Source: a virus | Lineage: Duplodnaviria > Caudoviricetes | Length of the DNA stretch: 64,000 bases | Direction: 5' to 3' (one strand) | IMG/VR virus record: IMGVR_UViG_3300013121_000023 | Location: 64,001 to 128,000 of that record | In this document: piece by piece, positions 46,800 through 62,253 of the stretch | Position numbering within the stretch: position 1 is the stretch's first letter | Layout: each line of letters starts with the position of its first letter | Notes under the pieces: model-generated | Told to the model about the DNA's origin: nothing | Databases searched by the model: none | The model's input: only the letters and a program-made list of their open reading frames with translations | Made by a program: the position numbers and the translations under genes

Positions 46800-47276
46800 A
46801 TGAATAAAACCGTACTAGAAAGAGCAATGCAGATTCTGGGCAATGCAGATGGTACTGATTTCGTAAGCAGGGTTAATGAAGCGTGTGATTTCATTGCGGA
46901 GAACATTACGGTAGCAACCGACATGTACACTATGGTACATGTATGTACTACGTGTGCATATATCGCTGGCACAATGAAGGTAGGCTACGGTAGCGATACT
47001 TTGGTACGCCTTATACGTAGGGAGTTTCTTAGAGGACTATACAGGATGCCTCAGTTTCCTATATGGTTTCTCGAAGACGAGAAGCTCTGCCTATCTTTCA
47101 TAACTCACATATGTGGGTGTAACTCTGAAGCAGACCACATTGTATCGTTGCTGTGCCTAGATAGAATTGGGGAACGTCCTGTATTTTTGGAAGTGGAGGC
47201 ACCGATTTACGTTAAGGAGTACGTCATAAAAAGAGCATCCATATACGGCTATGATGGGTGCCATATGAACGTTTAG
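46800..47276 (+). CDS. hypothetical protein, paralog family A (divergent)
   Basis: LRGLYRMPQFPIWF; FLEVEAPIYV. Confidence 0.55.
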   Translation: MNKTVLERAMQILGNADGTDFVSRVNEACDFIAENITVATDMYTMVHVCTTCAYIAGTMKVGYGSDTLVRLIRREFLRGLYRMPQFPIWFLEDEKLCLSFITHICGCNSEADHIVSLLCLDRIGERPVFLEVEAPIYVKEYVIKRASIYGYDGCHMNV

Positions 47277-47864: not shown

Positions 47865-48326
47865 ATGTTTCATCAAAAGGAGTTAGTTATGGGTTTTTAT
47901 GGACGTGGAGATGAAGGTCAGATGGTGGTTAGCGTAACAAAGGATTTTCTTATACAGAAGCTCACTGATAACAAAGAAAACCATATTAAAGAGTACAAAA
48001 AAGCAATAGCTAGTTACCAAGCTAGGGTAGCTAAGGAACTGGCTGCCGTGCTTGCCAAATTGCAGGCCGGTAAACCCATACCGGAAAGCTGGACGTATAA
48101 GCGCCCAGTATCACACGAGCGCGAGTACGCGCTTGCAATAGACATGTTGAGAGCATCGGTAGATACGACGCTCAAAATAACCGGTTCGATGTACGATATG
48201 TACGTCAATGACCGGTGGGACTGGAAATCCACGTTCGACGTAGTAAATGCTACGTATAATGATGGAGACGCCAACTCCGACGCAGGCGCCAACTCCGACG
48301 CAGGCGAGACCATGGTGCGTTCGTGA
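47865..48326 (+). CDS. phage hypothetical protein
   Basis: NKENHIKEY...PVSHEREYALAIDML...YVNDRWDW; start probably ~47889. Confidence 0.6.
   Translation: MFHQKELVMGFYGRGDEGQMVVSVTKDFLIQKLTDNKENHIKEYKKAIASYQARVAKELAAVLAKLQAGKPIPESWTYKRPVSHEREYALAIDMLRASVDTTLKITGSMYDMYVNDRWDWKSTFDVVNATYNDGDANSDAGANSDAGETMVRS
48270..48306 (+). repeat. 18-bp tandem duplication
   Basis: GCCAACTCCGACGCAGGC x2 (ANSDAG x2). Confidence 0.8.
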
Positions 48327-48331
48327 TTTGT

Positions 48332-48537
48332 GAGACGCCAAGTCTCCATGTCGGAAAACGAGGGATGTGGGCCACAGTTGACCCACAAATCCCAAAGGTG
48401 TCTGTGATGGCTTCGGCCAGAGTGATGGTCGCCGATTGACATCCGTCCATCGGCGATAGATACTGAGGGCCATGTACCACTAGCTGCACCTTGGTCGTGG
48501 CCCTCCTTGTTTCCGGTTCCATCAACCGTTTTTTTTT
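48332..48537 (+). ncRNA. structured intergenic RNA candidate with terminator
   Basis: Multiple nested helices, UUCG tetraloop, closing hairpin plus T9. Confidence 0.5.
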
Positions 48538-48554
48538 CGTTCAAGGAGGATGTG

Positions 48555-49073
48555 ATGACGACACGAAAGTTTGGGTTTGGTTCTATCCGTGTGGCTCGTA
48601 ACTTGATTGATATCGCAAGAGTAGATATCAGAAAATACGAGATGAGGATAGCCGCCACGCAAGCGTTGTACGACGTTTGTAAGGAGCTGATCAAGAGCGG
48701 AACTCTTATGGGTATCAACGCCCGTACAGTTTTGCTGCTTATGGCTTATCTCAAAGGTAGGTATTATGACGATGTTGAGAGAAAGCAAAGCGCTACATCA
48801 CGAAAATTTTTGAACGCCATAACCTTCAAGATACTGCATGACATAAAGTCAATCTTCCCAAATAAAGACAGTTTGAAGAACGTAGCCTTCGAACACATCA
48901 AGTTGGACGGCGCTGGTGGTTTTGCTGACTGGGTAGCATCCTGCGGAAACAACGTGGTTTCGGTGCCGCCTGGAACCAAGAAGGCCAGAAAGAAAGCTTA
49001 CGCCGAAAGAAGGGCTGCGCGAGTTAAGAAGGACATGGAAATGACTCATACAGCGAGTGACTTCAAAGCTTAG
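48555..49073 (+). CDS. hypothetical protein upstream of Pth; ends in TAG
   Basis: AAGGAGG RBS; ARTVLLLMAYLKGRYYDDVE. Confidence 0.65.
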   Translation: MTTRKFGFGSIRVARNLIDIARVDIRKYEMRIAATQALYDVCKELIKSGTLMGINARTVLLLMAYLKGRYYDDVERKQSATSRKFLNAITFKILHDIKSIFPNKDSLKNVAFEHIKLDGAGGFADWVASCGNNVVSVPPGTKKARKKAYAERRAARVKKDMEMTHTASDFKA

Positions 49074-49478
49074 AGGGTATATGTGGTGGTGTGTGACGAT
49101 CTCCCCAGCAGCTCACAAAAAGCTGTTCAGGGAGCACACGCACTCACCCAGTACATTCTACGTAACTTGCAAGAAGCCCAACAATGGGAAAAGGACTCAA
49201 ACGTCCTTGTGTTTCTGCGGGTGCCCGACGAGCAAGCCCTTATTTCTACAGCTGACAAGCTGAAGATTAATGGCGTTCCGGTGGAGGTGTTTACTGAGCC
49301 CGATTTGGGTAATAGGGCTACAGCACTGGCTGCGTCACCGTCAGCAGCCAAGCACCTCAAAAGATACCCACTGATGAAGTTACGAAAGCGGGCCTCGGCC
49401 CGCTTTCTTTTTAACTACCAAACATTATTCATTTACAGACATAAGATGTGTGAGAAAAAGACGTATTCTCAAATATAG
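49074..49478 (+). CDS. PTH2-family peptidyl-tRNA hydrolase-like protein
   Basis: RVYVVVCDDL...QKAVQGAHA...LVFLRVPDEQAL...FTEPDLGNRATALA. Confidence 0.75.
   Translation, partial: RVYVVVCDDLPSSSQKAVQGAHALTQYILRNLQEAQQWEKDSNVLVFLRVPDEQALISTADKLKINGVPVEVFTEPDLGNRATALAASPSAAKHLKRYPLMKLRKRASARFLFNYQTLFIYRHKMCEKKTYSQI
49384..49412 (+). terminator. intrinsic terminator inside the Pth ORF
   Basis: GAAAGCGGGC-CTCG-GCCCGCTTTC-TTTTT. Confidence 0.7.
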
Positions 49479-49487
49479 GAGAAATCT

Positions 49488-50342
49488 ATGCGCGCTCTTC
49501 CGATGATTGAAGCTGCTCCACATAAAGGCCAACTCTACTGTTCAGTGCGGTATGCAAAAAATTACGTAGCTGATAAAAAGGATTTCTTTATGCGTCTATT
49601 TAGCAAGCTCGGTACGCATACATGCGCGCCAGCAGCACACTGCTACACAGGAGATCCAGTAACCATATCTTCCATGTATTACGCATGCCCATTTTTGACG
49701 CATATCAAACCCACTTACCACAGATTGTCTTATCGGTGCGACCTGTTTGAAGATAAACTATCCACAGTTATCCCCAACAATACGGGAATACCGTTTCACA
49801 TATACGACTTTGAAATGCTTATGAATAGTCTGCAACGTGAAAATCAGATTGCTGTAGGTACTGCCATACAACTTCAAATTGGTCGTTTGTGGCAATGTCG
49901 TCAGCTACAAGAAGATTTGACTATGCATGGACGTTATCTCGGAGAAAGCAGAGATGGTCGCTCATCAGATGGGAATCATACGTCTGGTCTAAATATGATT
50001 CCATTTATAATACGTACCGATGGCGGTCAGTCGTCTGACAAGATTTCACTCAATGCGAAAAAGGAGGTGTTCTTGAAAACGCTACTTAATCCATCACCAC
50101 CAGTGACACAGATATACCCAATGTCGGCAGCACTTGATGAACTGCATACAGCCGACGAGATGAAAACAGCGAGGAGTCGTTATGAAGAGATATTGAAAGA
50201 GTTGCCGAAAGTGGATGAATTATCGTTGAAGACAACTTTTACTCTGTGCTTCTGTAACGTAAGCGCTGTCTCGTTTTTAGAAAGGTGTGAACATGTCGTA
50301 TTTCTTCACAAAAGACGATCTCTCGGTATCATACGGAACTAA
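49488..50342 (+). CDS. Cys-rich hypothetical protein, paralog family B
   Basis: CPFL...YRCDLF...RLWQCRQLQEDL..HG. Confidence 0.6.
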   Translation: MRALPMIEAAPHKGQLYCSVRYAKNYVADKKDFFMRLFSKLGTHTCAPAAHCYTGDPVTISSMYYACPFLTHIKPTYHRLSYRCDLFEDKLSTVIPNNTGIPFHIYDFEMLMNSLQRENQIAVGTAIQLQIGRLWQCRQLQEDLTMHGRYLGESRDGRSSDGNHTSGLNMIPFIIRTDGGQSSDKISLNAKKEVFLKTLLNPSPPVTQIYPMSAALDELHTADEMKTARSRYEEILKELPKVDELSLKTTFTLCFCNVSAVSFLERCEHVVFLHKRRSLGIIRN

Positions 50343-51426
50343 TCTGTATAACTGTTTGTACGATAATGACTTTTGGTCCAGCCTGTTGTCCAGAGTCTCG
50401 CTCAGACTAGGAATGTCTGCTTACGTAGGAAATGTTGGCGACGCTAGATCTAAAATATCGAAAGATAACTTCGATAAGCTAGTGTCTATTCTTAAAGAGA
50501 GTTGTTTTACTAAAGTCTACTCAAGAGGTGATTATCCGTCTTGTGAAGAGGTATATCTATCCGTAGCTGGATACGTGATTGTAGACGTATTCCAGGATAA
50601 CCATACATTCATATATGTAGGAATGTTCGATAGGGAGTCTGTTAGTAAGCTTAAATCCAAAATAGAGCATCTTGTAGAAAAAGTACCTGAAAATAAAGTT
50701 GATAACATACCGCGGGTACACGTCGTAGTTCAAACATCTAGCGGCCTAGACACTAGGGAATTTAATAGTGTCTATTGCAAGCTAGTTCGGGATAACTATG
50801 ACGCGCGCGTTCTTTCGCAGTGGGACAACGTTATTTCTGAGTTCAAGAAATCCGAGCCTGTGGCTAGAATGGCCATACTGAATGGCCCGCCAGGCACCGG
50901 TAAAACACATCTTATAAAGTCCATGCTGTTTGAAGATGGATTGTTTTGCCTTCTTCTGCCAAATGATTTGTTTGTAAACGTGGCCTCACCGGCCTTCCTC
51001 AACTTCTTGATAAATACAGCAGGGAGAATTTCACAGAAGTTGGTTCTTATACTTGAGGACGCCGATAGTCTATTGGAGGAGAGGTCCAACAAAGACGACG
51101 TTAATCCATTGGCGACGCTGCTCAATATGGCAGACGGAATATTGGGTAGAATATTGGATGTTCGTATGATTTTGACTACGAATAGAAAAGATCAAACGTA
51201 TGACGCCGCTACCCTGAGAGCTGGTAGGCTTCTTCACAACATAAACGTAGATAAGTTGGAAAAGAATGGTGTACTCAAAGCCTTTAGAAACATACTGGCT
51301 GACAATGGGATGTCTGAGAATGACATTCATTGCGAACTAGAAAAATTCGCGGCGGATCGCATGTCCATTGCCGATGTATATGCGATGGCGTTTGATGTGC
51401 TCAACAAGAGAAGAGAAGCAAAATGA
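50287..51426 (+). CDS. AAA+ ATPase
   Basis: Walker A GPPGTGKT, Walker B LILEDAD, LLNMADG, TTN, LRAGRL. Confidence 0.9.
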   Translation: MNMSYFFTKDDLSVSYGTNLYNCLYDNDFWSSLLSRVSLRLGMSAYVGNVGDARSKISKDNFDKLVSILKESCFTKVYSRGDYPSCEEVYLSVAGYVIVDVFQDNHTFIYVGMFDRESVSKLKSKIEHLVEKVPENKVDNIPRVHVVVQTSSGLDTREFNSVYCKLVRDNYDARVLSQWDNVISEFKKSEPVARMAILNGPPGTGKTHLIKSMLFEDGLFCLLLPNDLFVNVASPAFLNFLINTAGRISQKLVLILEDADSLLEERSNKDDVNPLATLLNMADGILGRILDVRMILTTNRKDQTYDAATLRAGRLLHNINVDKLEKNGVLKAFRNILADNGMSENDIHCELEKFAADRMSIADVYAMAFDVLNKRREAK

Positions 51427-52527: not shown

Positions 52528-53033
52528 AGATGTTTAATTAGAGACCCCTCCAAAGAGGGTCTGCCTACAAACCCGGGCAGATGAAAACATAAAAGTGGGT
52601 TCTCAGTTAATGCGACATTAACTGAGTGTCTTGAAACCAAGTCCATAGTATGGACTCTGGGATGTGCCCAGCACATATACCCAGCACATATCGCGGCTAG
52701 CGCCCCGCGATTGGCTTGCGGCAAGGCAAGGTGTCAGTCACTCAAGGTAAGGTGTCGTTGCTACACGCCACCGAGTGACGACGTATAGGGTTTCAGTGTG
52801 AATCCCAGTGGGGGATAGCACGAAGTAGCATTTACAGCCCTATATTTCAAGCCTCCGCAATGTCATAGAAAGCAAGCATACAGCTAGAACGTTCATTCGC
52901 GAAGCTCGCTTTTCTTGTTCGGCGAGTTAGCACAGAACGATGCTGTGTGTTTGAGCCGTAGCGCAGCGGCGTAGGATATATTTTATCTGTGTGTGTGTGT
53001 GTGGGCTGCCGGAATAACCGGCAGCCTTTTTTT
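52528..53033 (+). ncRNA. large structured ncRNA candidate (~500 nt)
   Basis: No credible ORF; about ten inverted repeats; ATAAGA motif upstream and terminator downstream. Confidence 0.6.
53004..53033 (+). terminator. intrinsic terminator
   Basis: GGCTGCCGG-AATAA-CCGGCAGCC-T7. Confidence 0.85.
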
Positions 53034-53051
53034 AGTACCGATGGAGAAGCC

Positions 53052-54050
53052 ATGAAGATGAATATTTTGGGCCAGGAACGTTGTCTGTATAACGTACCCT
53101 ATCACATAGGGTTCAACACTATAAAATTTGTAAGGTCTTTGTACGCATGGCTCAGTGATTACGATCGTAAGCTAACGTGGATGACCGTAAGTTCACCGCG
53201 TCAATCAGCAGAATATTATCACTCCGTAGCTTTGGACAATGGTTATAAAGAAATATGGATGGCAGAGACGGGACTTACACGTTACGAACTAACTGCTCTT
53301 TTGCAATGGATGAGCATACTTCAGCGCGTAGTATTTGAAAAAATATCTCATTTTCCAGCTAGGGCGCTTTTCAGAAGGAATGAAGGTAAATTGGAGGTTC
53401 ACCCAGCAGCTATAGTAGGCGACTTCAATAAGGTATCTAAGTTTTCTCCAACCTATCGTAATTACGTTTCTATTGGAGTTGATACCCCATATGAAATTAT
53501 TGATATCTACGGCATACATGCACTTGTCGATAATTCTGATGAAGATAAACCATTTCACATGTTCCCTGTGGGAGCTAATGAATCCATTGCAAGTATATTC
53601 AGGTCTAACGATCAGTTTAAATTGACTGTCACTAGTAAGACTGAACTCATTAGCGGTATATACGAATCTGAAGCGGCTGCTAATCGTAATAAGATACACG
53701 CTGAAGGAAATAGAATTGCCAAGGCTTGCGTAGAAGATAAAGTGGCGATCAAAACAGATATTCTCATTGCTAGCCTAGAAACCTGTTTCATGTCTTTTTC
53801 GTGTATGGAGAGAGCAATAGCCGCCGTACTGTCTGACCCGGGGTATGAACAGCACAAGTCATCAGTTATAAACGTCATCCAAACAATCATATCTTGCTAC
53901 ATGGGACATATGTATTGGAGAGAGCAGTTTGATTTCTACATGGCCAGTAAATACGCTGTGCCGCAGATGTACTCTATAGATATGTCTTATGGTGATTTTG
54001 ACTTGGGTAAGCTTATAGATTATTGGAGGCCCTACATCGGTACGAAGTAG
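53052..54050 (+). CDS. hypothetical protein
   Basis: GGAG RBS before ATG53052. Confidence 0.65.
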   Translation: MKMNILGQERCLYNVPYHIGFNTIKFVRSLYAWLSDYDRKLTWMTVSSPRQSAEYYHSVALDNGYKEIWMAETGLTRYELTALLQWMSILQRVVFEKISHFPARALFRRNEGKLEVHPAAIVGDFNKVSKFSPTYRNYVSIGVDTPYEIIDIYGIHALVDNSDEDKPFHMFPVGANESIASIFRSNDQFKLTVTSKTELISGIYESEAAANRNKIHAEGNRIAKACVEDKVAIKTDILIASLETCFMSFSCMERAIAAVLSDPGYEQHKSSVINVIQTIISCYMGHMYWREQFDFYMASKYAVPQMYSIDMSYGDFDLGKLIDYWRPYIGTK

Positions 54051-59393: not shown

Positions 59394-59406
59394 GAAAGAT
59401 TGTTTG

Positions 59407-59479
59407 TAGGACGCCCGGGACTTGAACCCGGAACCTGCGGATTAAAAGTCCGCTGCTCTACCTATTGAGCTAGCGACCC
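59407..59479 (-). tRNA. tRNA-Lys(TTT)
   Basis: Cloverleaf; anticodon arm GCGGA-CTTTTAA-TCCGC; GGTTCAAGTCC. Confidence 0.9.
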
Positions 59480-59490
59480 GAAGGAGAACC

Positions 59491-59799
59491 ATGACAACAG
59501 CAGCGCGCATGAGGGATTTGGTGGGCGAATATACCAAAAAAGTCATTAGTGAAAATGAGGAACATATAAATGAAAACTTGCTACCGATATTCCTTAAAGA
59601 CTTGTATTCTTGCATAGAATCAGCTGCATCTAAGGGACAGCGCACATACCAACATGCTATAAATCTTACAACCTTGAAGGTGCTGCATTTGGTTGTTCCA
59701 CAATTGAGAGATCGAGGTTATTTGGTAGAGTATATTACTAGTAGTACTACACAGCATCTTATGTACATGAACGTATCTTGGTCATTACTTGGTAGCTAA
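59491..59799 (+). CDS. hypothetical protein
   Basis: AAGGAG RBS. Confidence 0.55.
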   Translation: MTTAARMRDLVGEYTKKVISENEEHINENLLPIFLKDLYSCIESAASKGQRTYQHAINLTTLKVLHLVVPQLRDRGYLVEYITSSTTQHLMYMNVSWSLLGS

Positions 59800-60205
59800 A
59801 AAAGAAGAGAGCGAAAGCTCTCTTCTTTAAATACTTGAATCTATGCGCCTCAATGTATGAGGCCATTACCTCTGCAATGTAGTCGGGGGCAATTCCCCGA
59901 AGTGCATTGCGACTGAGCACTTTTGCGGTACCCTTCCCCCACGGTACCTTCACTGCCTCAATATATGGTTTGCCCTCCCCTTCTGGATGGCGCATTGTTA
60001 GCAAGTGTCTCGCTGCCTGCATCAGCAGGGAGCTTACCTCCTTCGGCTCCTCCAGCCAAAGGATGTGGATTACTGGGTGGTTCAGCACCACCCTCAATTG
60101 CTTTATGGTTTCTTCATTTGCAATATCAGTGTACCTAGTGCCCTCATGTACGAATGTCCTAATGTCCAACAGGGCCTTCCGAAGGCCCTCTATGTTTTCG
60201 TACAT
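59759..60205 (-). CDS. hypothetical protein, paralog family A
   Basis: LRVVLNHPVIHILW; IAPDYI; ATAAGA and AGGAGG upstream. Confidence 0.6.
   Translation of the reverse strand: MYENIEGLRKALLDIRTFVHEGTRYTDIANEETIKQLRVVLNHPVIHILWLEEPKEVSSLLMQAARHLLTMRHPEGEGKPYIEAVKVPWGKGTAKVLSRNALRGIAPDYIAEVMASYIEAHRFKYLKKRAFALFFFSYQVMTKIRSCT
59791..59828. terminator. bidirectional terminator
   Basis: AAAAAAGAAGAGAGC-GAAA-GCTCTCTTCTTT between convergent genes. Confidence 0.75.
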
Positions 60206-60318
60206 AGTACCTCCTTTCATATATCTTATGCCATTTTTACGAATAAATTAAGGTACACATAAGTAATAATCGAGGGGCTAAAGAAATGGAAGGATAGCTC
60301 CATCTCTAATAAGTGTTG

Positions 60319-60390
60319 TGCCCCAGAGAGGAATCGAACCTCCTTTAGCCTCCTTGTAAGGGAGGTGCCGGACCAGCTGGCTCCTGGGGC
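60319..60390 (-). tRNA. tRNA-Val(TAC)
   Basis: CCTCC-CTTACAA-GGAGG; GGTTCGATTCC. Confidence 0.85.
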
Positions 60391-60686
60391 AACTGTAACT
60401 TAGATATATCCAAAGAAAGGGAAATCAGCATACCAATGAATTGGTCTCTTCCTTTTTCTACTTCTGTTATGAATTCCGAAACCAATTTGGTTTCGGTCGT
60501 GCCATTTGACTCTATTGTCATGTTCATGTTATGAAAACATGACGATGCTGAATCTGGCCATATTGTGTGTGATACTTTATTAAACCGTTTGTGGAATAGA
60601 TGCCACGCATCTCTAAAGCAGTCTGTTACATAGACCATAACCACCAGTTCTTTTCTTTCTGTGTCCTTTATGAAGTAAACGTTCAT
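60345..60686 (-). CDS. hypothetical protein overlapping tRNA-Val
   Basis: AAGGA RBS; 113 aa. Confidence 0.5.
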   Translation of the reverse strand: MNVYFIKDTERKELVVMVYVTDCFRDAWHLFHKRFNKVSHTIWPDSASSCFHNMNMTIESNGTTETKLVSEFITEVEKGRDQFIGMLISLSLDISKLQLPQEPAGPAPPLQGG

Positions 60687-60722
60687 TCTTCATTCCTTTC
60701 ATTTTTACTCATATAGTAACAG

Positions 60723-60796
60723 TGGGACCACTCGGATTCGAACCGAGAACATCCCGGTTATGAGCCGGGGGCTCTGACCGATTGAGCTATAGTCCC
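60723..60796 (-). tRNA. tRNA-CAT, probably Ile2 (lysidine)
   Basis: CCCGG-CTCATAA-CCGGG; paired 1:72, so not an initiator. Confidence 0.85.
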
Positions 60797-60875
60797 AAAC
60801 AAGCCGTTTTTAAATAAACGGCAAGGATTTATTGCATGACGTGGCCTCAGCCCGCCTTATCTATGCAATACATCG

Positions 60876-60947
60876 AGCCCACTATGGGATTTGAACCCAT
60901 GACCTACGGTTTACAAAACCGTTGCTCTACCACTGAGCTATGTGGGC
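60876..60947 (-). tRNA. tRNA-Thr(TGT)
   Basis: ACGGT-TTTGTAA-ACCGT; canonical cloverleaf. Confidence 0.92.
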
Positions 60948-60950
60948 AGG

Positions 60951-61060
60951 AGCGACAGGCCCGAGTCGAACGGGCGACCAACGGAAAACCGCTGCTCTAC
61001 GGGGCCATCACCAGACAGAACGTTACTTGTCTGGCTTGTGACCTACTGAGCTACTGTCGC
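60951..61060 (-). ncRNA. tRNA-like RNA with D-loop hairpin insertion and 4-nt anticodon loop
   Basis: Perfect acceptor GCGACAG/CTGTCGC; T arm GCCCG-TTCGACT-CGGGC. Confidence 0.7.
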
Positions 61061-61083
61061 AAAAAAGGCTTATATAGCCTTTG

Positions 61084-61155
61084 TGGATCGTCTAGGAATT
61101 GAACCTAGGCACAGCGCTTATAAGACGCCGCAGGGCAACCAGCCCGTCACGATCC
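61084..61155 (-). tRNA. tRNA-Ile(TAT)
   Basis: GGCGT-CTTATAA-GCGCT; GGTTCAATTCC. Confidence 0.8.
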
Positions 61156-61234
61156 ATAAGAGGTACACCGGAGACCCGATGAAGCCTTCCGCCAGCATGG
61201 TAGGAAGAAGGAGTGTCACCACGATGTACCTCGG

Positions 61235-61306
61235 CATCCCTGACAGGATTTGAACCTGTGACCCGGAGATTAGAAATCTCCTGCTCTTCCGCTGAGCTAC
61301 AGGGAC
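61235..61306 (-). tRNA. tRNA-Arg(TCT)
   Basis: GGAGA-TTTCTAA-TCTCC. Confidence 0.92.
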
Positions 61307-61544
61307 ATCTACGCCTTCACTCATATTTCTTATTGCGCTATTTATTTGATTTTTTCTTACGGTAGCTAAAAATAGATAGGGTTTGCTGATATAGGAGTAA
61401 GTTGGCCCGCCGTCATGATCGCCGTTATACCGGATGGAGTCTGGAGTACAGCTACTATCAACCGGGCCGAGAAGATAGATTTACAACGAACTGGTGTGGT
61501 TCGTATGACTAACGGTCTTTCGGGGCGCCTCATCAAGACCGCTG

Positions 61545-61623
61545 TGCTCTTGGCAGGAGTCGAACCTGCAAATAATAAAGCCGCTTTTGAAACGGCCGCG
61601 TCTGCCTATTTCGCCACAAGAGC
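61545..61623 (-). tRNA. tRNA-Leu(CAA)
   Basis: GCCGT-TTCAAAA-GCGGC; T-rich 10-nt variable region. Confidence 0.85.
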
Positions 61624-61682
61624 TTTGGCCGTCACCCCCCACACCAACTACTAGAGCTGTGTGGGGGGGGGGTTTCGTAGGT

Positions 61683-61781
61683 AGACCCCGAGTTAGAAAG
61701 CCGTTCTGCATCTTCAGTATTCGGCGAAGAAAAAGAGAGTTGCACTCTTTTCGGGCGTGTATGGCTTTCTTGGTGGGGTCT
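61683..61781 (-). ncRNA. Y-RNA-like RNA 2
   Basis: AGACCCC/GGGGTCT terminal stem; T-arm-like AAGAG-TGCAACT-CTCTT followed by a closed hairpin. Confidence 0.6.
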
Positions 61782-61865
61782 TGGAAAGCGAAGAGGAATT
61801 GAACCTCTTATCTCCATTTCGGTAGTTGGCCTAGATGGATGGTTTTTGCCTTTAACCTACGCTTC
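61782..61865 (-). ncRNA. tRNA-like RNA with 17-nt anticodon loop
   Basis: D stem GGTT/AACC, TCCAT/ATGGA stem, GGTTCAATTCC, encoded CCA. Confidence 0.6.
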
Positions 61866-61870
61866 ATAAT

Positions 61871-62016
61871 GAGACCCGAGTTACTGCACCATTGTCCTTG
61901 TTAGGACTGGTTTTGGTTACCAGTTGCCGACCACCGGCACCTACCCCTTATACGGGGTAGCTAGGATTCGAACCTAGTTTTTGGGGTTGCGTGTAGGATG
62001 CAGTTGTTTGGGTCTC
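61871..62016 (-). ncRNA. Y-RNA-like RNA 1 / circularly permuted tRNA-Trp-like domain
   Basis: Order is T arm, loop-closed acceptor, D arm, anticodon arm, all inside a terminal stem. Confidence 0.7.
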
Positions 62017-62018
62017 GG

Positions 62019-62100
62019 TGCTGAGAGAGGGACTCGAACCCTCACGGTTTTACCCGCCGGTACCTAAAACCGGGGCGTCTACCTATTCCGCCACCTCAGC
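62019..62100 (-). tRNA. tRNA-Leu(TAG)
   Basis: CCGGT-TTTAGGT-ACCGG; long variable arm. Confidence 0.92.
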
Positions 62101-62174
62101 AAGAAAGGGTGTAAGTAACGTGTGTAGGGACGAACGGCGAAGAACATCCAAGTACTCACGTTAAGCACACCCTG

Positions 62175-62253
62175 TGGGGTAGATAGGGATCGCACCTATC
62201 AGCTCTGGGCAGCGGTTTTACAGACCGCCTGAAGCACTAGCTTCGTCTACCCC
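62175..62253 (-). tRNA. non-canonical tRNA-Tyr(GTA)
   Basis: GCGGT-CTGTAAA-ACCGC; A73; T-loop TGCGATC; atypical D arm. Confidence 0.7.

What the first reader, a model, noticed from the sequence alone, without database searches (positions are those of the whole stretch)
48555..49478. Peptidyl-tRNA hydrolase gated by an in-frame amber codon and an in-ORF terminator
Seen: TAG at 49071-73 is followed in frame by R-V-Y-V-V-V-C-D-D-L, the full first strand of the PTH2 fold. The first usable start (GTG49083) would drop RVY, although GAGGG could serve as its RBS. After the domain end (KRYPL) there is no stop before a strong terminator at 49384-49412; the stop is at 49476. Known: arfA and Bacillus brfA are made from non-stop mRNAs and accumulate only when tmRNA rescue fails. 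Inference: a translation-stress sensor that yields Pth only on stop read-through and/or failed trans-translation.
Basis: partly seen in the sequence, partly recalled or inferred. Interest (0 to 1): 0.72.

Follow-up and report, generated by a model that had tools for sequence, protein, structure and literature searches.

The report
Amber-gated phage PTH2-like hydrolase gene
A 177-kb sludge phage keeps a UAG stop codon just before the first strand of a small tRNA-hydrolase-like gene and encodes its own UAG-reading tRNA, a pairing shared by dozens of distant phages, so the complete enzyme is probably made only when that tRNA overrides the stop.

Summary
TAG 49071 is followed in frame by R-V-Y-V-V-V-C-D-D-L. 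GTG 49083 is the first standard start. A strong terminator (49384-49412) lies inside the ORF, whose stop is TAG 49476.

The amber part is real and conserved. Of 63 distinct related phage loci, 39 read start, 1-7 codons, TAG, 1-6 codons, K-L-Y, with no start after the TAG. The leader stop is always TAG. A tRNA(CUA) lies within 4 kb in 34 of those 39. This phage uses the standard code and encodes a genuine tRNA(CUA) 22 kb away, outside the window.

Three things are special here. The gating TAG is also the stop of the in-frame upstream gene ORF-A. ORF-A belongs to a family found upstream of, or fused to, PTH2-like genes elsewhere, so read-through would give a fusion. A GAGGG-GTG site could bypass the gate.

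The ArfA-like "non-stop mRNA" idea has no comparative support. No relative has a terminator inside the ORF, and the closest one stops straight after the domain.

Nothing is experimental. I found no paper on this layout, but this scan has noted the same PTH2/suppressor pairing on other DNA.

The parts
48555..49073 (+). ORF-A, 172 aa. It belongs to a helical-protein family found upstream of, or fused to, PTH2-like genes. Its stop codon is the amber codon.
   Evidence: BLASTP to L007:3757-4566 gives E 7e-11. An HMM of the N-domains of fused PTH2 proteins ranks it first of 1898 genome ORFs, E 0.037 with 8 sequences and 0.0072 with 18. hhalign P = 1.2e-4.
49029..49043 (+). AAGGA (49029-33), then 7 nt, then in-frame ATG 49041. 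This is a candidate own start of a leader M-T-H-T-A-S-D-F-K-A-TAG.
   Evidence: Sequence. By analogy with the leaders. ATG 49035 is lost in one natural variant, ATG 49041 is kept.
49071..49073 (+). In-frame amber codon. It is the stop of ORF-A and the family-type gate of the PTH2-like gene. The next base is A.
   Evidence: It is unchanged in contigs of 4 other runs.
49074..49376 (+). PTH2-like domain, 101 aa, starting with R-V-Y.
   Evidence: Pfam PF01981 and phrog_1866. AlphaFold2 pLDDT 97.6. Foldseek top hits are Pth2 structures, TM 0.81-0.86. 885 homologues. Six natural substitutions all fall at third codon positions.
49073..49085 (+). GAGGG, then 5 nt, then GTG 49083. This is a possible suppression-independent start that would drop R-V-Y.
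   Evidence: Gene callers use it (P0003).
49377..49475 (+). 33-codon C-terminal tail with no counterpart in most relatives.
   Evidence: Family members end -5 to +13 residues from the profile end; four have +22 to +28.
49384..49412 (+). Intrinsic-terminator-like hairpin plus T tract inside the ORF.
49476..49481 (+). Second TAG, the stop of the PTH2-like ORF. It overlaps AGGAG, the ribosome-binding site of the next gene.
   Evidence: The same TAGGAG-6 nt-ATG design occurs at 47274.
49488..50342 (+). ORF-C, 284 aa, no family match. It is in frame behind the second TAG.

Best explanation
The gene at 49074-49478 belongs to a phage clade of PTH2-fold (peptidyl-tRNA-hydrolase-like) proteins. Genes of this clade typically carry a UAG within their first few codons and sit beside a phage tRNA with anticodon CUA.

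TAG 49071 is that gate. The complete protein, with its whole first strand, is made only when the phage's own amber-suppressor tRNA (genome 135413-135485, minus strand, 22 kb beyond the locus and outside the window) reads the UAG.

In this phage the gate doubles as the stop of the in-frame upstream gene ORF-A. ORF-A's relatives are encoded next to, or fused with, PTH2-like domains elsewhere. Read-through therefore gives either an ORF-A-PTH2 fusion or, from the internal AAGGA-ATG 49041, a short-leader PTH2.

Shown: the sequence layout, the family-wide conservation, the tRNA gene, the fold, and purifying selection on the ORF. Inferred: that the tRNA is expressed and charged, that it decodes this UAG, and that this limits enzyme production.

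The terminator inside the ORF is most simply a lineage-specific loss of the original stop codon. It is not part of the gate.
For: The domain is a genuine PTH2 fold:
- Pfam PTH2 above the cut-off, AlphaFold2 pLDDT 97.6, Foldseek top hits are all Pth2 structures.
- R-V-Y fits the family N-terminal consensus [KR]-[LV]-Y-V-V-V-R-x-D-L.

The amber codon is conserved across the family:
- Of 81 related loci (63 distinct), 55 (39 distinct) read start, 1-7 codons, TAG, 1-6 codons, K-L-x, with no ATG/GTG/TTG after the TAG.
- The leader stop is TAG in 39 of 39, even at 27-37% G+C.
- The base after the TAG is a purine in 37 of 39.

The suppressor tRNA goes with the gene:
- tRNA(CUA) lies in the +/-4 kb locus in 34 of 39 gated and 13 of 22 ungated distinct loci, on the same strand in all but one.
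- It also follows the hydrolase gene of Mycobacterium phage Cane17.
- This genome holds one tRNA(CUA), at 67.5 bits to Rfam tRNA.

The closest relative shows the same gate. L007 (51% identity) reads AGGAA-5 nt-ATG ACG TAG ...K-L-Y, followed by TGA, a terminator and tRNA(CUA).

Other support:
- Several gated loci, and this genome, use the standard code: 95% coding density in code 11, and TAG ends 49 of 199 genes.
- ORF-A family genes lie directly upstream of PTH2-like genes in at least 11 other loci and are fused to the domain in 8 representatives.
- Natural variants keep the TAG, and all 6 changes in the ORF are at third codon positions.
Against: - No experiment. Expression, charging and amino-acid identity of the tRNA are unknown.
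- GTG 49083 with GAGGG is a respectable start, so here the gate may be leaky or bypassed.
- The tRNA is 22 kb away on the other strand, not adjacent as in most relatives.
- TAG ends a quarter of this phage's genes. These genes show no enrichment of back-up stops: median 20 codons to the next TAA/TGA, against 12-17 for other genes. Suppression must therefore be weak, timed or context-bound.
- The candidate leader is 10 codons long, longer than in relatives (1-7).
- In relatives the upstream gene is out of frame, so the fusion reading is not conserved.
- No other gene of this genome shows a leader-TAG excess.
Confidence: 0.55

Rival explanations
1. These are two ordinary adjacent genes. ORF-A stops at TAG. 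The PTH2-like protein starts at GTG 49083 from the GAGGG site. The shared frame is a by-product of a stop codon overlapping the ribosome-binding site, and R-V-Y is an untranslated relic of an ancestral leader.
For: The GAGGG-5 nt-GTG geometry is good. Gene callers choose this start. TAGGAG-6 nt-ATG junctions at 47274 and 49476 are in frame by design. In-frame TAG junctions are not significantly enriched: 8 of 19 against 10 of 40.
Against: A GTG start removes two residues of strand 1. No family member with an ordinary start begins after K-L-Y. A relic would not keep [KR]-[LV]-Y in both this phage and L007, whose proteins are only 51% identical. The family-wide TAG and the phage tRNA(CUA) would be left unexplained.
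Confidence: 0.3
2. ArfA/BrfA-like logic. Transcripts ending at the terminator (49412) lack a stop codon. The product is tagged by tmRNA and destroyed, and it accumulates only when ribosome rescue is saturated.
For: A strong hairpin plus T tract lies inside the ORF, with no in-frame stop for 33 codons after the domain. The layout is identical in contigs of four studies.
Against: It is not conserved. None of 62 other distinct family members has a terminator in the ORF. L007 has TGA straight after the domain, then the terminator. Four other members have 22-28-residue tails without a hairpin. Elsewhere in this genome, hairpins overlap ORF 3' ends 7-45 nt before the stop. The protein is unrelated to ArfA or BrfA.
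Confidence: 0.07
3. Start-stop leader with re-initiation. The short ORF (ATG ... TAG) is translated and terminated. Ribosomes then restart without suppression at a nearby non-standard codon, here GTG 49083 and ATT/ATA/GTA in relatives.
For: The codon after the TAG is ATT in 23 and ATA in 3 of 39 distinct leaders. AUU is a rare bacterial start (general knowledge, infC).
Against: GTA, GTT, CTT, AGC, AAT, GAA, CCA and AGG also follow the TAG. Re-initiation gives no reason for the stop to be TAG in 39 of 39 AT-rich and GC-rich loci, nor for a tRNA(CUA) next door.
Confidence: 0.05

Closest known systems
Stop-codon recoding in phages through phage-encoded suppressor tRNAs (TAG read as Gln, 'code 15'; Borges et al., bioRxiv 10.1101/2021.08.26.457843; Peters et al., PMC9523058)
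   Same: A phage tRNA(CUA) is used to read in-frame TAG. The proposed role is timing of gene expression.
   Different: Here the genome is standard-code: 95% coding density, and TAG ends 25% of genes. A single identifiable gene carries the in-frame TAG, at a fixed place near its 5' end. That paper does not mention a hydrolase.
prfB (RF2) autoregulation through an early in-frame UGA
   Same: A translation factor gene carries, near its start, the very stop signal whose decoding state it could sense.
   Different: prfB uses a +1 frameshift and the factor is the release factor itself. Here the read-out would be suppression by a tRNA, and the enzyme's target is unknown. This is an analogy only.
Archaeal/eukaryotic Pth2 (PF01981; PDB 2zv3, 1q7s, 3erj, 1xty) and the PTH2 genes of jumbo phages (Iyer et al. 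2021, PMC7824862)
   Same: Same fold and a Pfam match. Presence in large phages is already described.
   Different: This is a divergent clade with two deletions. The Lys of the canonical G-K motif is mostly Gln, and the D-A-G Asp aligns with Glu. The published survey links PTH2 to ribosome rescue and mentions neither suppressor tRNAs nor an in-frame TAG.
arfA (E. coli) and brfA (Bacillus) non-stop mRNA regulation
   Same: An ORF runs into a transcript-ending element with no stop codon before it.
   Different: There is no homology. The layout is not conserved in relatives. Nothing shows that the truncated product is the active form.

Membership tests
PTH2 (PF01981) | Profile match above the curated cut-off | tested here: met
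   34.7 bits against 23, E 2.3e-8. The family profile hits Pth2 chains at E 1e-12 to 3e-5.
PTH2 (PF01981) | Pth2 alpha/beta fold | tested here: met
   AlphaFold2 pLDDT 97.6. The Foldseek top 12 are all Pth2 structures, TM 0.81-0.86.
PTH2 (PF01981) | Catalytic residues of canonical Pth2 (Lys of the G-K motif, Asp of D-A-G; recalled from memory for S. solfataricus Pth2) | tested here: inconclusive
   In the profile alignment the Asp position is an invariant Glu. The Lys position is mostly Gln in the clade and Lys in this protein.
PTH2 (PF01981) | Hydrolysis of peptidyl-tRNA | not testable with these tools
   Needs an enzyme assay.
Amber-gated phage PTH2-like / tRNA(CUA) module (informal; seen in this scan, no paper found) | In-frame TAG just 5' of the K-L-Y strand with no standard start between | tested here: met
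   TAG 49071 directly precedes R-V-Y. The same holds in 39 of 63 distinct loci.
Amber-gated phage PTH2-like / tRNA(CUA) module (informal; seen in this scan, no paper found) | Own start codon 1-7 codons before the TAG | tested here: inconclusive
   AAGGA-7 nt-ATG 49041 lies 10 codons before the TAG, but inside ORF-A and in its frame.
Amber-gated phage PTH2-like / tRNA(CUA) module (informal; seen in this scan, no paper found) | tRNA(CUA) on the same strand within a few kb | tested here: not met
   The only tRNA(CUA) is 22 kb away on the minus strand. It is present in the genome but not adjacent.
TAG-recoded (code 15) phages | Fragmented genes in code 11 and few genes ending in TAG | tested here: not met
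   Coding density is 91-95% in code 11. TAG ends 49 of 199 genes. No leader-TAG excess in other genes.
ArfA/BrfA-type non-stop regulation | No in-frame stop before a transcript-truncating element | tested here: met
ArfA/BrfA-type non-stop regulation | The layout is kept in homologues | tested here: not met
   0 of 62 other distinct members. L007 has a stop before its terminator.
ArfA/BrfA-type non-stop regulation | Product level depends on tmRNA | not testable with these tools
   Needs ssrA mutants and 3'-end mapping.

The most novel reading that the evidence does not exclude
The ORF-A-family protein, the PTH2-like enzyme and the tRNA(CUA) form a self-referential circuit that measures and limits amber suppression. 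The enzyme removes the acyl or peptidyl group from the suppressor tRNA (or clears what suppression produces). Its own synthesis needs suppression, which gives negative feedback of the prfB type. In this phage the same UAG also sets the ratio of free ORF-A to ORF-A-PTH2 fusion.
Probability: 0.15. Interest if true: 0.9.

Novelty: new variant of a known kind. Interest (0 to 1): 0.7.

Why it matters
Many phages that use the standard code carry suppressor tRNAs with no known client. The XacN1 authors, for example, looked for targets and found none (PMC5852040). A conserved gene that can be read in full only through UAG, and that usually sits beside the tRNA, is a concrete and testable client. It also points to a translational switch built from a stop codon and its own reader.

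This window adds a natural variant. The tRNA is remote, the gate doubles as the stop of a partner gene that is fused to the enzyme elsewhere, and a bypass start exists. That makes it useful for separating the gated route from the ungated one.

Tried and rejected
- DNA search of the locus in the phage collection found no match. Protein-pattern scans of IMG/VR with single proteins found nothing.
- Word-based protein searches found only the window's own proteins.
- ORF-A against the N-terminus of XacN1 ORF364 (an HD-like domain) was not significant.
- Genome-wide TAG recoding is rejected: coding density is already high in code 11.
- A search for other gated genes in this genome found no excess. 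An upstream start within 12 codons of the preceding in-frame stop occurs in 18 of 62 TAG, 22 of 81 TAA and 14 of 56 TGA cases.
- The three in-frame ORFs at genome 8604-12368 have no Pfam or PHROG match, so read-through could not be judged there.
- Complex prediction of ORF-A with the PTH2 domain gave no verdict.
- In the RNA-library run X18, contigs cover 48451-49197 and nothing from 49198 to 49800. Contigs cannot show transcript ends, so this says nothing about the terminator.
- The homologue of the L007 middle gene (174 aa) is absent from this genome.
- PHROG annotation of ten large neighbouring genes gave almost nothing.

Full report
**1. What is in the sequence**

The window is bases 64001-128000 of a complete 177,132-bp phage record with terminal repeats. 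Genes are densely packed on the plus strand in the standard code.

At the locus, ORF-A (48555-49073, 172 aa) ends in TAG 49071. The same frame continues R-V-Y-V-V-V-C-D-D-L into a PTH2 match. The first standard start is GTG 49083, preceded by GAGGG.

The domain ends near ...K-R-Y-P-L-M. The frame stays open for 33 more codons, through a strong hairpin plus T tract (49384-49412; dG -22.1, z -5.8), to TAG 49476. That TAG overlaps the AGGAG of the next gene. The next gene, ORF-C (49488-50342), is again in frame.

An independent assembly (L004, 99.7% identical) and DNA contigs of three further studies carry the same TAG and the same open tail. None of this is an assembly artefact.

**2. The domain**

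- The AlphaFold2 model has pLDDT 97.6, with strand 1 at residues 2-7 counted from the R.
- All top Foldseek hits are Pth2 structures: 2zv3, 1q7s, 3erj and 1xty, TM 0.81-0.86.
- An exhaustive profile-free search finds 885 relatives. Most are 99-120 aa and end within a few residues of P-L-[LA].
- A soil variant of the phage has six substitutions inside the ORF, all at third codon positions: five synonymous and one Asp to Glu. The frame is therefore under purifying selection.
- The clade is divergent from canonical Pth2. It has two deletions, a Glu at the D-A-G Asp position, and mostly Gln where the G-K lysine would be. Its substrate is uncertain.

**3. In-frame adjacency alone is weak evidence**

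In this genome 8 of 19 TAG junctions are in frame, against 10 of 40 for TAA/TGA. The design TAG-overlapping-AGGAG, 6 nt, ATG (47274 and 49476) produces in-frame neighbours automatically.

**4. The decisive evidence is comparative**

The genome encodes a tRNA with anticodon CUA at 135413-135485 on the minus strand. It lies outside the window and scores 67.5 bits to the Rfam tRNA model.

The closest PTH2 relative (P0004, 51% identity) lies on a 168-kb contig, L007. There the gene reads AGGAA, 5 nt, ATG ACG TAG CCA CAC CGA GAT AAG CTG TAC GTG..., that is M T * P H R D K L Y V V V. It stops with TGA straight after R-R-Y-P-L-L. A terminator follows, and then a tRNA(CUA).

A profile scan of IMG/VR gave 80 more loci. 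After dereplication there are 63 distinct loci:

| Class | Distinct loci | tRNA(CUA) within +/-4 kb |
|---|---|---|
| Gated: start, 1-7 codons, TAG, 1-6 codons, K-L-x, no standard start after the TAG | 39 | 34 |
| Ordinary start | 22 | 13 |
| Other | 2 | 1 |

- The leader stop is TAG in all 39 gated loci, including genomes of 27-37% G+C.
- The following base is a purine in 37 of 39.
- The tRNA(CUA) is nearly always on the same strand, and within 1 kb in 24 of the gated loci.
- Several gated loci have 96-99% ORF coverage in code 11, so this is not ordinary sense-codon use in recoded phages.
- In the cultured Mycobacterium phage Cane17, the annotated hydrolase gene is followed by a tRNA that ARAGORN reads as CUA.

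The window's TAG directly before R-V-Y, with A as the next base, fits this pattern. An in-frame ATG at 49041 behind AAGGA would give a 10-codon leader.

**5. ORF-A belongs to the same module**

- Eight representatives carry a helical N-terminal domain of about 100 aa fused to the PTH2-like domain.
- An HMM of that domain ranks ORF-A first among all 1898 six-frame ORFs of the genome, at E 0.037. With 18 sequences it is E 0.0072 and the next hit is 0.25.
- Profile-profile comparison gives P = 1.2e-4.
- The HMM also finds separate genes just upstream of PTH2-like genes in L027, L045, L038, L012, L019, L021, L033, L042, L010 and L062.
- ORF-A matches the corresponding L007 gene at E 7e-11.
- The shared motif is R-x-x-L-L-x-Y-x-x-L-[RK]-G-x-x-Y-x-x-[IV]-E.
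- In L033 this gene overlaps the PTH2 start by ATGA, in another frame, and the PTH2 gene then reads ATG ACC TAG.

A fusion product is therefore plausible here, because fused forms exist. But it is not the conserved route.

**6. Limits**

- TAG ends 49 of 199 genes here, and those genes have no nearer back-up stops than the others. Any suppression must be weak, timed or context-dependent.
- No other gene of the genome shows the leader-TAG layout above background.
- The GAGGG-GTG site may let a slightly shortened protein be made without suppression.
- Everything about the tRNA's expression and charging is inference.

**7. The terminator**

- None of the other 62 distinct family members has a hairpin plus T tract within the ORF. 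Four have tails of 22-28 residues without one.
- L007 shows the canonical order: domain, stop, terminator.
- In this genome 11 strong hairpins lie 1-22 nt after a stop. Four or five overlap ORF ends, one of them ending 37 nt before the stop of a 432-aa ORF.

The simplest reading is that this lineage lost its stop codon. The window has AAG where L007 has TGA. An ArfA-like circuit cannot be excluded, but it has no support.

**8. Literature and earlier notes**

Published work describes PTH2 in jumbo phages (PMC7824862), suppressor tRNAs and code change in phages (10.1101/2021.08.26.457843), and an unsuccessful search for targets of the CUA tRNAs of XacN1 (PMC5852040). Four full-text searches found no description of an amber codon in PTH2 genes or of the PTH2-tRNA(CUA) pairing.

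This scan's own notes report the same pairing on other DNA many times. I reached it independently before reading them. One later check there rated the bold "self-contained switch" reading at 20 in 100, which is why my confidence stays moderate.

Noticed in passing
window 59406-62253 (- strand): A cluster of nine tRNA genes (Lys, Val, Met, Thr, Ile-UAU, Arg-UCU, Leu x2, Tyr) lies 10 kb downstream of the PTH2-like gene. The suppressor tRNA is not part of it.
   Followed up: partly
outside the window: genome 8604-12368 (locus L006:605-4369): A second run of three ORFs (560, 271 and 402 aa) is in one frame, separated only by TAG. None has a Pfam or PHROG match, so read-through cannot be judged.
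   Followed up: partly
outside the window: genome 144064-144092 (- strand): Another strong terminator-like hairpin (dG -22) ends 37 nt before the stop of a 432-aa ORF. Terminators inside ORF ends are not unique to the PTH2 gene in this phage.
   Followed up: no
window 53003-53027: A strong terminator-like hairpin sits 15 nt into the listed ORF 52989-54050. The true start of that gene is probably further downstream.
   Followed up: no
window 49196-49358: A soil-metagenome variant (run X6) has six substitutions within 163 nt of the PTH2 ORF and none in the following 1 kb. This looks like a small recombination patch.
   Followed up: partly
L027:3384-4010; L002:61-900 (XacN1 ORF364); L090:2015-2800 (RAS14): An HD-type domain is encoded between the ORF-A-family gene and the PTH2-like gene (L027), or is fused in front of the PTH2-like domain (XacN1). 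RAS14 also has a 261-aa fused form whose N-terminal part was not examined. This hints at a larger tRNA-end module.
   Followed up: partly
window 48014-48718 (- strand): A 234-aa antisense ORF overlaps ORF-A. It has no support, and ORF-A has the higher coding score. It is probably spurious.
   Followed up: no
window 48000-50400: Near-identical DNA occurs in activated-sludge, digester, sludge and soil metagenomes of several studies. The phage is widespread in engineered and soil systems.
   Followed up: partly
L029, L038, L045: Three PTH2-like loci with ordinary starts carry a tRNA with anticodon UUA (ochre type) instead of CUA.
   Followed up: no
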